A DNA stretch of 64,000 nt, from the NCBI RefSeq assembly GCF_009914755.1, contig NC_060934.1; one strand, written 5' to 3'. A program made the translations under genes and the position numbers. How positions within the stretch are numbered: position 1 is the first letter of the stretch; each line of letters begins with the position of its first letter. This document shows positions 18,469 through 21,887 of this stretch, piece after piece. The stretch is from the human T2T-CHM13v2.0 reference genome, Homo sapiens. The notes under the pieces are model-generated. The model did no database searches. It had not been told where the DNA came from and worked only from the letters and a program-made list of their open reading frames with translations.

Positions 18469-18765
18469 TATTATTATTTTTTAAATGTAGTTTGCTTTTG
18501 AAAGAACAACACAATAGTAAATACTTAATACATGTACTGTTAATAATATTTGCATATTAAATTGTGGGTATGTTTTAGTATAAATGGGCACTAATTTTAT
18601 ACTTTATCCAGTCTCACACTTTAAATAGACATTGTATCACTTAGGAGAAGGGCAATTATTCTGTTGTGGGAGTGGAGAAGAAAGGCTGAAACAGAGTCTA
18701 ATGAAGTACATTATTTCAACACTTCTTTCTCTTCCTTTTTAATGGAACCCTGCTCCTCAGATAGA

Positions 18766-19440
18766 GTGGTTTTTGTCTTTGGTTCTGTTTATATGCTGGA
18801 TTACGTTTATTGATTTGTGTATGTTGAACCAACCTTGCATCCCAGGGATGAAGCCCACTTGATCATGGTGGATAAGCTTTTCGATGTGCTGCTGGATTCG
18901 GTTTGCCAGTATTTTATTGAGGATTTTTGCATCAATGTTCATCAGGGATATTGGTCTAAAATTCTCTTTTTTTGTTGTGTCTCTGCCAGGCGTTGGTATC
19001 AGGATGATGCTGGCCTCATAAAATGAGTTAGGGAGGATTCCCTCTTTTTGTATTGATTGGAATAGTTTCAGAAGGAGTGGTACCAGCTCCTCCTTGTACT
19101 TCTGGTAGAATTTGGCCGTGAATCCGTCTGGTCCTGGACTTTTTTTGGTTGGTAAGCTATTAATTATTGCCTCAATTTCAGAGCCTGTTATTGGTCTATT
19201 CAGGGATTCAGCTTCTTCCTGGTTTAGTCTTGGGCGGGTGTATGTGTCCAGGAATTTATCCATTTCTTCTAGATTTTCTAGTTTATTTGCGTAGAAGTGT
19301 TTATAGTATTCTCTGATGGTAGTTTGTATTTCTGTGGGATCAGTGGTGATATCCCCTTTATCATTTTTAATTGCGTCTATTTGATTCTTCTCTTTTTTCT
19401 TCTTTATTAGTCTTGCTAGCGGCCTATCAATTTTATTGAT
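18766..19440 (-). mobile_element. L1PA ORF2 internal segment (about ORF2p aa 370-594); non-inverted arm of a twin-primed L1
   Basis: [11 protein letters not shown]...[11 protein letters not shown]...PGPDGFT...[14 protein letters not shown]...KDKNH, uninterrupted; no poly-A tail. Confidence 0.93.
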
Positions 19441-19441
19441 G

Positions 19442-21887
19442 GCCATTGCTGAGGCTTGAGTAGGTAAACAAAGTGGCCTGGAGGCTCGAACTGGGTGGAG
19501 CCCACTGCAGCTCAAGGAGGCCTGCCTGCCTCTGTAGACCACCTCTGGGGGCAGGGCATAGCCGAACAAAAGGCAACAGAAACGTCTGCACACTTAAATG
19601 TCCCTGTCTGACAGCTTTGAAGAGAGTAGTGGTTCTCCCAGCACGGAGTTTGAGATCTGAGAACGGACAGACTGCCTCCTCAAGTGGGTCCCTAACTCCC
19701 AAGTAGCCAAACTGGGAGGCACCCCCCAGCAGGGGCAGACTGACACCTCACATGGCTGGGTACCCCTCTAAGACAAAGCTTCTAGAGGAACGATCAGGCA
19801 GCAACATTTGCTGTTCTGCAGCCTCTGCTGCTGATACCCAGGCAAACAGGGTCTGGAGTGGACCTCCAGCAAACTCCAACAGACCTGCAGCTGAGGGTCC
19901 TGACCGTTAGAAGGAAAACTAACAAACAGAAAGGACATCCACACCAAAACCCCATCTGTACGTCACCATCATCAAAGACCAAAGGTACATAAAACCTCAA
20001 AGATGGGGAAAAAACAGAGCAGAAAAGCTCAAAATTCTAAAAATCAGAGCACCTCTCCCCCTCCAAAGGAACGCAGTCCTCACCAGCGACAGAACAAAGC
20101 TGGATGGGAATGACTTTCACGAGTTGAGAGAAGAAGGCTTCAGACGATCAAACTTCTCCAAGCTAAAGGAGGAAGTTCGAACCCATCGCAAAGAAGCTAA
20201 AAACCTTGAAAAAAGATTAGACGGATGGCTAACTAGAATAACCAGTGTAGAGAAGTCTTTAAATGACCTGATGGAGCTGAAAACCATCGCATGAGAACTA
20301 CGTGACGAATGCACAAGCTTCAGTAGCCAATTCAATCAACTGGAAGAAAGGGTATCAGTGATGGAAGATCAAATGAATGAAATAAATCCACAAGAGGAGT
20401 TTAGAGAAAAGAGAGTAAAAAGAAATGAGCAAAGTCTTCGAGAAATATGGGACTATGTGAAAAGACCAAATCTACATCTGATTGGCGTACCTGAAAGTCA
20501 CGGGGAGAATGGAACCAAGTTGGAAAACACTCTGCAGGATATTATCCAGGAGAGCTTCCCCAACCTAGCAAGGCAGGCCAACATTCAGATTCAGGAAATA
20601 CAGAGAATGCCACAAAGATACTCCTGGAGAAGAGCAACTCCGAGACACATAATTGTCAGATTCACCAAAGTTGAAATGAAGGAAAAGATGTTAAGGGCAG
20701 CCAATGAGAAAGGTTGGGTTACCCACAAAGGGAAGCCCATCAGACTAACAGCTGATCTCTCGGCAGAAACTCTACAAGCCAGAAGAGAGTGGGGACCAAT
20801 ATTCAACATTCATGAAGAAAAGAGGTTTCAACCCAGAATTTCATATCCAGCCAAACTAAGCTTCATAAGTGAAGAAGAAATAAAATCCTTTACACACAAG
20901 CAAATGCTGAGAGATTTTGTCACCACCAGGCCTGCCCTACAAGAGCTCCTGAAGGAAGCACTAAACATGGAAAGGAACAACTGGTACCAGTCACTGCAAA
21001 AACATGCCAAATTGTAAAGACCATCAATGCTAGGAAGAAACTGCATTAACTAATAAGCAAAATAACCAGCTAACATCATAATGACAGGATCAAGTTCACT
21101 CCTAACAATATGAACTTTAAGTGTAAATGGGCTAAATGCTCCAATTAAAAGACACAGACTGGCAAATTGGATAAAGAGTCGAGACCCATCAGTGTGCTAT
21201 ATTCAGGAGACCCATCTCATGTGCAGAGACACACATAGGCTCAAAATAAAGGGATGGAGGAAGATCTACCAAGCAAATGGAAAACAGAAAAAGGCAGGGG
21301 TTGCAATCCTAGTCTCTGATAAAACAGACCTTAAACCAACAAAAATCAAAAGAGACAAAGCCATTACATATTGGTAAAGGGATCAATTCAACAAGAAGAG
21401 CTAACTATCCTAAATATATATGCACCCAATACAGGAGCACCCAGATTCATAAAGCAAGTCCTTAGAGACCTACAAAAAGGCTTACACTCCCGCACAATAA
21501 TAATGGGAGACTTTAACACCCCAGTGTCAACATTAGACATATCAATGAAACAGAAAGTCAACAAGGATATCCAGGAATTGAACTCAGCTCTGCACCAAGC
21601 GGACCTACTAGACATCTACAGAACTCTCCACCCCAAATCAACAGAATATGCATTCTTCTCAGCACCACGTTGCACTTATTCCAAAATTGACCACATAGTT
21701 GGAAGTAAAGCACTCCTCAGCAAATGTAAAAGAACAGAAATTATAACAAACTGTCTCTCAGACCACAGTGCAATCAAACTAGAACTCAGGATTAAGAACT
21801 CACTCAAAACCGCTCAACTACATGGAAACTGAACAACCTGCTCCTGAATGACTACTGGGTACATAGCGAAATGAAGGCAGAAGTAAA
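19442..21887 (+). mobile_element. L1PA (roughly PA4-PA6) partial 5' UTR, ORF1 (20003-21017, disrupted) and ORF2 endonuclease (from 21081, disrupted); inverted arm
   Basis: 5' UTR starts mid-UTR at gccattgctgaggcttgagtagg; ORF1 C-terminal 219 aa open (...RPNLHLIGVPE...QKHAKL); EN motifs IYAPNTGAP and SDHSAIKLEL, with stops and frameshifts. Confidence 0.95.

What the first reader, a model, noticed from the sequence alone, without database searches (positions are those of the whole stretch)
18757..19600. L1 inversion junction fuses the antisense promoter/ORF0 start codon in frame to an intact ORF2p PIP-box fragment (229-aa ORF antisense to ZMYND11)
Seen: the inverted L1 arm begins at 19442 with gccATtgc. 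On the minus strand this reads gcaATGGcc (ATG 19446-19444, strong Kozak). After M-A the frame crosses the junction into ORF2 and stays open for 229 aa ([13 protein letters not shown]...[11 protein letters not shown]...PGPDGFT...[13 protein letters not shown]...KDKNHSI*, stop ending 18757). An ATTAAA follows 14 nt after the stop (tttaat at 18738-18743). Established: this ATG corresponds to the primate L1 ORF0 initiator (MAGAPPP...), the 5'-UTR segment to its right is the L1 antisense-promoter region, and QTTIREYY is the PCNA-binding PIP box of ORF2p. The fragment stops just before the first RT catalytic Asp and has no endonuclease. Inference: twin priming produced a potential expression cassette (promoter, start codon, ORF, polyA signal) for a catalytically dead PCNA-binding ORF2p fragment, which could act as a decoy or as antisense RNA to ZMYND11. 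Caveats: an equally long ORF1 stretch is also open, so intactness may be chance, and internal AATAAA motifs could truncate the RNA.
Basis: partly seen in the sequence, partly recalled or inferred. Interest (0 to 1): 0.8.

Follow-up and report, generated by a model that had tools for sequence, protein, structure and literature searches.

The report
Chance open frame in inverted L1
A 229-codon open reading frame in a ZMYND11 intron is a leftover of an old, rearranged LINE-1 retrotransposon, and it evolves like neutral junk rather than like a working gene.

Summary
The ORF is real: 18757..19446 (-), 229 aa. Residues 3-227 are LINE-1 ORF2p 370-594. The PIP motif is intact and the fragment ends before catalytic D600. 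M-A come from the antisense 5'UTR. The ATG is homologous to the ORF0 start (18 of 20 paralogs, about position 450).

The element is an old 5'-inverted L1PA copy. It lacks about 292 nt between the arms, its first ~445 nt and its whole 3' end (no poly(A), no TSD).

Nothing indicates function:
- The copy has 14 private substitutions, 9 replacing and 5 silent. Thirty decaying paralogs give 362:129 (p=0.54).
- The same segment is open in 1 of 30 same-family copies. Lesion rates predict 11-14%. This is a mild outlier, and it was found by looking for ORFs.
- Five AATAAA lie inside the ORF.
- The antisense promoter is cut at about +446.
- ZMYND11 is named in neither of two L1 chimeric-transcript papers searched.
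- Recent work places PCNA binding in the ORF2p wrist, which is absent here.

Verdict: an ordinary L1 relic with a coincidental ORF. Low interest.

The parts
18757..19446 (-). 229-codon ORF (M-A + ORF2p 370-594 + S-I + TGA)
19444..19446 (-). ATG homologous to the L1 ORF0 start codon (element position about 450-452), context gcaATGG
   Evidence: 18 of 20 paralogs have ATG here followed by MAGAPPP-like frame; ATG lies 439-450 nt from the 5' end in 17 of 20; ORF0 start codon includes L1 position 451
19441..19441 (.). inversion junction: one base assignable to neither arm; no microhomology
   Evidence: (6 paralogs shown for each side)
18766..19440 (-). left arm: L1 ORF2 sense, ORF2p residues 370-594 (tower lock, PIP helix, fingers, start of palm); no indel, no stop
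19303..19329 (-). PIP motif IQTTIREYY (ORF residues 40-48 = ORF2p 407-415)
   Evidence: alignment; residues 407-415 named, helix 404-419
18757..18765 (-). last two codons (S, I) and TGA, from single-copy non-L1 flank
18738..18743 (-). ATTAAA 13 nt after the stop
18806..19437 (-). five internal AATAAA (18806, 18913, 19282, 19403, 19432); the one at 19432 arises from a silent change private to this copy
   Evidence: (6 of 6 paralogs shown differ at that base); paralogs carry 3-6 AATAAA in the same segment
19442..20002 (+). right arm, 5'UTR from element position about 446 to ORF1: retained part of the antisense-promoter region; private 2-nt and 17-nt deletions at 19538 and 19809; 8 CpG
19512..19559 (-). 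15-codon upstream ORF, out of frame with the main ORF (matters only for transcripts starting beyond about +563)
20003..21017 (+). ORF1 relic: two 1-nt deletions (20076, 20107) and one in-register stop (20292); open only from 20361 (218 aa)
21081..21887 (+). ORF2 endonuclease relic up to about residue 257-268: one in-register stop, 4-nt and 1-nt deletions (21359, 21796); L1 homology ends at 21887

Best explanation
This is a decayed, rearranged copy of a primate L1PA element in ZMYND11 intron 1, and its 229-codon ORF is a by-product.

Read on the minus strand the element is:
- flank;
- antisense L1 from about nt 2760 down to about nt 446;
- one extra base;
- sense L1 ORF2 codons 370-594;
- flank.

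This is the layout of a 5'-inverted insertion. The most likely mechanism is twin priming, which I put at about 60%. In that reading the second cDNA stopped five bases past the ORF0 ATG and was joined, by chance in frame (1 in 3), to the first cDNA inside ORF2. The 3' 2.2 kb with the poly(A) tail and TSD was either lost later by deletion or never integrated (inferred, not shown).

Since insertion the copy has drifted neutrally. The right arm collected 6 frame-breaking lesions. The 675-nt left arm collected 14 substitutions but happened to receive no stop and no indel.

The ORF is not maintained by selection, and it most likely yields no stable protein. Any antisense transcript would start from a truncated promoter and meet five AATAAA signals. 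The product would be a partial fingers/palm piece of an enzyme that is unstable even as the 97-kDa ORF2p core.
For: Anatomy:
- ORF and arms are defined.
- ATG homology to ORF0: 18 of 20 paralogs, position about 450, ORF0 start includes position 451.

Neutral drift:
- 14 private substitutions in 675 nt, 5 silent and 9 replacing. Thirty paralogs have a mean of 16.4 (range 7-33) and a replacing:silent ratio of 362:129. Fisher p = 0.54 (the same result with 15 paralogs).

Chance openness:
- 1 of 30 paralog segments is open, with 1.97 lesions per copy, P0 = 0.14.
- The element's own right arm has 6 lesions in about 1.8 kb, P0 = 0.11 for 675 nt.
- The same ORF2 segment is stop-free in 143 of the 149 other best-scoring genomic matches, out of 98,079 first-look candidates. 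Open copies of this 'PIP fragment' are therefore commonplace.

5' inversions are common: 639 of 2068 human- or chimpanzee-specific L1 insertions.

Weak cassette:
- Five internal AATAAA.
- The promoter arm starts at about +446. ASP start sites were mapped to +300..+500 and +150..+250, and ASP-containing L1s were defined as repStart <400 and repEnd >600.
- RefSeq lists no minus-strand gene here (hub table).
- ZMYND11 is absent from the text and held supplements of two L1 chimeric-transcript studies.

Protein:
- The PIP helix packs on palm and fingers, and PCNA binding depends on EN and RT activity.
- PCNA contact is assigned to the wrist PUB motif.
- The apo ORF2p core melts at 34 C.
Against: - Only 1 of 30 same-family copies keeps this segment open, so the intactness is on the low side of chance (3-14%).
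- The pieces do line up as a cassette: Kozak-strong ATG, no in-frame stop, ATTAAA 13 nt after the stop, and about 150 nt of the ASP region upstream at 93-94% identity to paralogs.
- About 17% of L1PA1-7 elements with a 5'UTR gave chimeric transcripts in brain or glioma. Antisense transcription from such elements is therefore not rare.
- I examined no expression, ribosome-profiling, proteomic, population or cross-species data. The N:S test on 14 substitutions has little power.
- The twin-priming hallmarks that could be tested (junction microhomology, TSD, poly(A)) were not found.
Confidence: 0.85

Rival explanations
1. The junction created a working expression cassette (antisense promoter, ORF0 ATG, ORF, ATTAAA). 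It makes a catalytically dead, PCNA-binding ORF2p fragment that acts as a decoy, restricting L1 or titrating PCNA.
For: - ATG, Kozak context, open frame, intact PIP motif and ATTAAA are all present.
- Openness is somewhat rarer than in paralogs, 1 of 30.
- PIP-box mutations abolish the ORF2p-PCNA interaction and retrotransposition according to the literature summarised.
Against: - No sign of purifying selection: 9 replacing to 5 silent private changes against 362:129 in paralogs.
- The promoter is truncated at about +446.
- Five AATAAA lie inside the ORF, the first 9 nt after the ATG.
- PCNA association requires EN and RT activity. Pull-downs implicate the wrist PUB motif, absent here.
- The PIP helix is a structural element packed on palm and fingers.
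- At least 143 other loci encode the same segment without a stop, so a locus-specific role is not needed.
- No annotated transcript (hub table). ZMYND11 is not named in two chimeric-transcript papers.
Confidence: 0.02
2. The retained part of the antisense promoter fires now and then (hypomethylated cells, tumours). It gives a low-level, mostly prematurely polyadenylated RNA antisense to ZMYND11. The RNA may occasionally be translated into an unstable non-functional polypeptide, which would be noise or at most a tumour-specific antigen.
For: - L1PA1-7 antisense promoters are active at about 17% of elements, and their activity follows that of the host locus.
- ZMYND11 is a transcribed host gene (hub table).
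- The region from +446 onward is retained at 93-94% identity to paralogs.
- ORF0-fusion products are documented.
Against: - The promoter lacks everything below +446.
- It carries a private 2-nt deletion at 19538 and three private substitutions nearby.
- Only 8 CpG remain in 561 nt.
- ZMYND11 is not named in the two papers searched.
- No RefSeq model (hub table).
Confidence: 0.1
3. Origin other than twin priming followed by deletion. One option is a non-classical (endonuclease-independent, break-repair) capture of L1 cDNA or RNA pieces. Another is a post-insertion inversion and deletion inside a once longer L1. The ORF would still be a by-product.
For: - No poly(A), no TSD (only 8-mers, as chance gives).
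- No microhomology at the inversion junction.
- About 292 nt are missing between the arms.
- 3'-truncated L1s without poly(A) or TSD are the signature of non-classical insertion.
Against: - Only 2 of 21 non-classical insertions had internal rearrangements.
- A simple in-place inversion would leave element positions 1-445 to the right of 21887. That DNA is single-copy non-L1.
- 5' inversions are a very common outcome of ordinary retrotransposition.
Confidence: 0.3

Closest known systems
5'-inverted L1 insertions (twin-priming model, Ostertag and Kazazian 2001; seen here only through, original paper not held)
   Same: An upstream L1 segment in antisense is joined head-to-head to a downstream sense segment. 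The inverted segment is the more 5' part of L1. A stretch is lost at the inversion point.
   Different: The sense arm lacks its 3' end, poly(A) and TSD. The junction has no microhomology. The inverted arm reaches into the 5'UTR and ends 5 nt past the ORF0 ATG.
L1 ORF0 and ORF0-exon fusion proteins (Denli et al. 2015; paper not held, described)
   Same: It uses the same antisense ATG at element position about 450-452 with its strong context, downstream of the antisense promoter.
   Different: Only M-A of ORF0 remain. The ORF0 body and its two splice donors are gone. The fusion is at DNA level to L1's own ORF2, not by splicing to a host exon.
L1 chimeric transcripts from the antisense promoter (Speek 2001; Criscione 2016 PMC4908685; Pinson 2022 PMC9396940)
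   Same: The orientation would give an RNA running out of the 5'UTR antisense strand into adjacent DNA, here antisense to the host gene. Antisense was a minority class, 182 of 2316 overlaps.
   Different: The promoter is truncated at about +446 and fails the repStart <400 criterion. No transcript is documented for this locus.
Non-classical (endonuclease-independent) L1 insertions (Sen et al. 2007, PMC1920257)
   Same: 3' truncation, no poly(A), no TSD.
   Different: Those are mostly linear; 2 of 21 were rearranged. The pre-insertion site could not be reconstructed here.
ORF2p PIP box and PCNA (Taylor 2013 as cited; Baldwin 2023 PMC10830420; PMC7617806, Science 2025)
   Same: The motif IQTTIREYY is identical to ORF2p 407-415.
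   Different: The fragment lacks EN, the catalytic triad, thumb, wrist (PUB motif) and CTD. Direct PIP-PCNA contact is now disputed.

Membership tests
LINE-1 ORF2p (fragment) | Sequence homology to human ORF2p | tested here: met
   Residues 3-229 match ORF2p 370-596, E 8e-139; RVT_1 N-terminal part, E 6e-11.
LINE-1 ORF2p (fragment) | RT catalytic triad D600, D702, D703 and the EN domain | tested here: not met
   L1 homology ends at residue 594. The triad is named. EN lies on the other arm, on the opposite strand, and is broken.
Twin-priming 5'-inverted L1 insertion | An inverted 5' segment taken from upstream L1 sequence, joined to a sense 3' segment | tested here: met
   Antisense positions about 2760 to 446 are joined to sense ORF2 codons 370-594.
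Twin-priming 5'-inverted L1 insertion | Microhomology at the inversion junction | tested here: not met
   0 nt shared and one unassigned base. Insertions without microhomology do occur.
Twin-priming 5'-inverted L1 insertion | Poly(A) tail at the 3' end and flanking target-site duplications | tested here: not met
   L1 stops at 18766 next to single-copy DNA. Only 8-mer matches to the right flank were found. Loss by later deletion cannot be excluded.
L1 ORF0 / antisense-promoter unit | ATG at element position about 450-452 on the antisense strand | tested here: met
L1 ORF0 / antisense-promoter unit | ORF0 coding body with its splice donors | tested here: not met
   Only ATGGC is retained; positions below about 446 are absent.
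L1 ORF0 / antisense-promoter unit | Complete ASP region (working definition: element covers <400 to >600) | tested here: not met
   The arm starts at about 446. The criterion is given.
L1 ORF0 / antisense-promoter unit | Antisense transcripts initiating in the 5'UTR | not testable with these tools
   No expression data were available. ZMYND11 is absent from the text and held supplements of PMC4908685 and PMC9396940. Those tables may list loci by coordinate only.
PIP-box PCNA-binding protein | Canonical motif Q-x-x-[ILM]-x-x-[FY]-[FY] (motif form recalled, not from a call) | tested here: met
   QTTIREYY at ORF residues 41-48.
PIP-box PCNA-binding protein | Physical binding to PCNA | not tested
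The literature ties binding to EN/RT activity and to the wrist motif.
Domesticated (selected) transposon-derived gene | Excess of silent over replacing changes since insertion | tested here: not met
   9 replacing to 5 silent against 362:129 in 30 paralogs, p = 0.54.
Domesticated (selected) transposon-derived gene | ORF kept open in orthologous loci of other species | not testable with these tools
   No other primate genome is held.

The most novel reading that the evidence does not exclude
In hypomethylated cells (early embryo, germline, tumours) the remaining half of the antisense promoter fires. Some transcripts escape the five internal AATAAA. The ORF0 start codon then drives translation of a 229-residue ORF2p tower-lock/PIP/fingers fragment. 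The fragment interferes with L1 RNP assembly or PCNA recruitment, or is presented as a locus-specific antigen. This would be a DNA-level ORF0::ORF2 fusion made by an inversion junction, a route to L1-derived proteins not described so far.
Probability: 0.03. Interest if true: 0.5.

Novelty: already known. Interest (0 to 1): 0.12.

Why it matters
If the fragment were expressed and bound PCNA or L1 RNA, it would be a host-encoded dominant-negative against LINE-1 born from an insertion accident, and worth testing. The evidence instead says it is one of many decayed 5'-inverted L1 copies. The useful lesson concerns scan calibration. A 200-250-codon open stretch in a 20-odd-million-year-old L1 (age by recalled calibration) is expected in roughly 3-14% of copies. 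The genome holds well over a hundred stop-free copies of this same ORF2 segment.

Tried and rejected
(1) Template-switch chimera. The idea was that the L1 arm is fused to the DDX20 retrocopy lying downstream on the same strand. Rejected for three reasons:
- DDX20P1 is only 68-69% identical to its chr1 source, so it is far older than the L1.
- It has its own A-run at 16426-16436.
- 258 nt of single-copy DNA separate the two.

(2) Continuity with the old minus-strand L1 at 14559-16327. That element begins at about ORF2 residue 622, close to where the young arm ends at 594. Rejected as one element because it is 41-74% identical at protein level and about 76% at DNA level, against 91-95% for the arm. 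I treat the closeness as coincidence.

(3) TSD search against 13000-18800: only four 8-mers, about what chance gives.

(4) Premature polyadenylation or internal priming as the cause of the arm ends. Neither end carries an A-tail.

(5) The ORF1 part used a wrong codon register (about 26 'stops' in every copy) and is void. It was redone from the stop codon.

(6) A scan of viral contigs for an L1 5'UTR word gave 0 hits. It was superseded by the window's own genome.

(7) Papers not held: Denli 2015, Speek 2001, Ostertag and Kazazian 2001. What I say about them comes from other papers' passages. A full-text search for the ORF0 N-terminal string found 0 papers, so the name ORF0 rests on position, not on a published sequence.

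(8) RUNX-site integrity of the antisense promoter. The site's coordinates were not given in the paper read, so I make no claim.

(10) No structure or complex prediction was run. Neither would have changed the verdict, and human PCNA is not an allowed reference.
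Full report
OBSERVATION

- The frame is open for 49 more codons upstream, to a stop at 19596-19594, with no further in-frame ATG.
- Residues 3-229 align to human LINE-1 ORF2p residues 370-596 in five sets of solved structures (E about 1e-138).
- Pfam sees only the N-terminal quarter of RVT_1.
- IQTTIREYY sits at ORF residues 40-48, equal to ORF2p 407-415, the stretch named the PIP box.
- The catalytic triad is D600/D702/D703. The fragment ends before it.
- ATTAAA lies at 18743-18738, 13 nt after the TGA.
- Five AATAAA lie on the same strand inside the ORF.

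ANATOMY

The window's own genome could be searched. Thirty-nine same-family elements were picked by similarity to the 5'UTR part 19447-19760 (93-94% identity). Twenty were fetched as 5-kb loci.

The right arm, on the + strand:
- 19442-21887 is collinear with these copies, from 5'UTR through ORF1 into the ORF2 endonuclease region, at 90.5-92.6% identity for the 15 copies that cover it.
- L1 homology stops at 21887, at about ORF2 residue 257-268.

The left arm, on the - strand:
- 19440-18766 matches ORF2 at 91.1-95.5% identity with no indel of its own.
- Homology stops at 18766. The last two codons and the stop come from DNA that is single-copy in the genome.

Between and around the arms:
- Base 19441 belongs to neither arm, and the arms share no microhomology.
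- About 292 nt of L1 are missing between the arms.
- The first ~445 nt of the element are absent.
- Everything 3' of ORF2 codon 594 is absent.
- No poly(A) and no TSD could be found.
- The right flank is also single-copy.

THE ATG

In 18 of 20 paralogs the same ATG, in CTCAGCAATGG, opens an antisense frame beginning MAGAPPP or close variants. In 17 of 20 it lies 439-450 nt from the start of shared homology. A paper on an L1PA2-driven lncRNA places the ORF0 start codon at L1 position 451. ORF0 is described as lying antisense in the 5'UTR downstream of the antisense promoter in L1HS and L1PA2-8. I found no published ORF0 sequence to compare. Only ATGGC of ORF0 survives.

ORIGIN

Read on the minus strand, the order is antisense upstream L1, then sense downstream L1. 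That is the layout of a 5'-inverted insertion, which made up 639 of 2068 lineage-specific L1 insertions in one survey.
- A simple in-place inversion would have left positions 1-445 to the right of 21887, and they are not there.
- Twin priming is therefore the most economical account of the junction and the right end.
- The missing 3' arm needs either a later deletion or a non-classical insertion. The testable hallmarks were not met.
- I put twin priming plus later loss at about 60% and other routes at about 30%. An outgroup genome is needed to decide.

CHANCE OR SELECTION

Three controls were run.

(a) Same-family copies, chosen without regard to ORF2 state.
- 33 of 39 hold the segment. Three of these are partial and were dropped.
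- Of the 30 complete ones, 1 is open.
- They carry 31 in-register stops and 28 frameshifting indels, or 1.97 per copy, giving Poisson P0 = 0.14.

(b) The same element's right arm.
- ORF1 has two 1-nt deletions and one in-register stop. The stop is at a codon where 7 of the 16 sequences compared (the window included) carry a stop.
- The endonuclease part has one stop, a 4-nt deletion and a 1-nt deletion.
- That makes 6 lesions in about 1.8 kb. It predicts 2.2 lesions in 675 nt, P0 = 0.11 (for the EN part only, 42).

(c) Substitution pattern.
- The window has 14 private substitutions in 675 nt, 5 silent and 9 replacing.
- The 30 paralogs average 16.4 (range 7-33), with 362 replacing (21 of them stops) and 129 silent.
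- Fisher p = 0.54 (15-paralog version).

The branch is of ordinary length and its changes are of the neutral kind. The copy simply drew no stop (P about 0.54 for 14 substitutions) and no indel. An ORF picked because it is open, with a prior of 3-14%, is not evidence of constraint. The in-frame join adds a 1-in-3 coincidence. Stop-free copies of this very segment are also abundant: 143 of the 149 other best-scoring matches, out of 98,079 candidates. That ranking favours young, intact copies.

THE CASSETTE

Promoter:
- Antisense start sites were mapped to +300..+500 and +150..+250. One study defines ASP-bearing L1s as covering <400 to >600.
- This arm begins at about +446, so the +150..+250 cluster and most of the +300..+500 zone are gone.
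- Only starts between about +453 and +500 would include the ATG (inference).
- The retained part has a private 2-nt deletion at 19538, three private substitutions around 19578-19593, and 8 CpG in 561 nt, like its paralogs.
- A 15-codon out-of-frame uORF at 19559-19512 would precede the ATG in longer transcripts.

Termination:
- The first AATAAA lies 9 nt after the ATG and arose by a silent private change.
- Paralogs carry 3-6 such signals in the segment.

Expression:
- RefSeq has no minus-strand model here (hub table).
- ZMYND11 appears in neither the text nor the held supplements of two genome-wide studies of L1 antisense chimeric transcripts, nor in a third paper's text.
- A full-text search combining ZMYND11 with L1 antisense terms listed ten papers, none of which holds ZMYND11.
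- These are name searches, not coordinate searches, and they are no substitute for data.

THE DECOY IDEA

- The PIP helix (404-419) anchors the tower to palm and fingers. The ORF2p-PCNA interaction depends on EN and RT activity.
- A 2025 structural study predicts and supports by pull-down that PCNA binds a wrist-domain motif (W1011, I1014, N968) rather than residues 407-415.
- Even the ORF2p core is unstable without nucleic acid, with Tm 34 C.
- A fragment with half a fingers/palm fold and no EN, triad, thumb, wrist or CTD is a poor candidate for a stable PCNA binder (inference).

COMPARISON AND NOVELTY

The locus is a further instance of a known kind, a decayed 5'-inverted L1PA copy.
- I could not assign a subfamily, because no repeat library is held.
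- From pairwise divergence of 4.6-8.9% and recalled calibrations I would guess the L1PA4-6 age class.
- The DNA-level ORF0-ATG::ORF2 fusion is a curiosity I did not find described. Nothing suggests it is more than a coincidence.

NOT DONE

I examined no expression, ribosome, proteome, population or cross-species data, and ran no structure or complex prediction.

Noticed in passing
window 17114-17370: A 28-nt unit repeated 9.2 times at 98% match (TRF score 500). It lies inside the stretch annotated as DDX20P1, and the match to the chr1 DDX20 source is interrupted there.
   Followed up: partly
window 16406-17594 (DDX20P1): The retrocopy is only 68-69% identical to its source on contig C1 (two pieces). 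It ends in an A-run at 16426-16436 on the minus strand. It is much older than the L1PA element next to it.
   Followed up: partly
window 14559-16327, minus strand; T-run from about 13548: This is an old L1 ORF2 relic, about 76% DNA identity and 41-74% protein identity to L1PA copies. It starts at about ORF2 residue 622, on the same strand and only ~28 residues beyond where the young arm stops (594). I judged this a coincidence, but it is unexplained.
   Followed up: partly
loci L043-L062, ORF1 region (window-equivalent 20145, 20178, 20292, 20328, 20388): The same five ORF1 codons are stops in 9, 5, 7, 6 and 6 of 16 independent copies. These are recurrent hits at hypermutable sites, so shared stops in L1 copies are not evidence of common descent.
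   Followed up: no
window 19578-20497: NCBI's soft-mask leaves this stretch unmasked although it is L1 5'UTR and ORF1 (90-93% identical to many genomic copies). The hub's mask list understates the repeat content here.
   Followed up: no
window 18181-18507, minus strand: An Alu-like element (recognised by eye and by similarity to the Alu-like start of locus L048) with an (AAT)n tail at 18188-18219. It lies 258 nt downstream of the ORF's stop.
   Followed up: no
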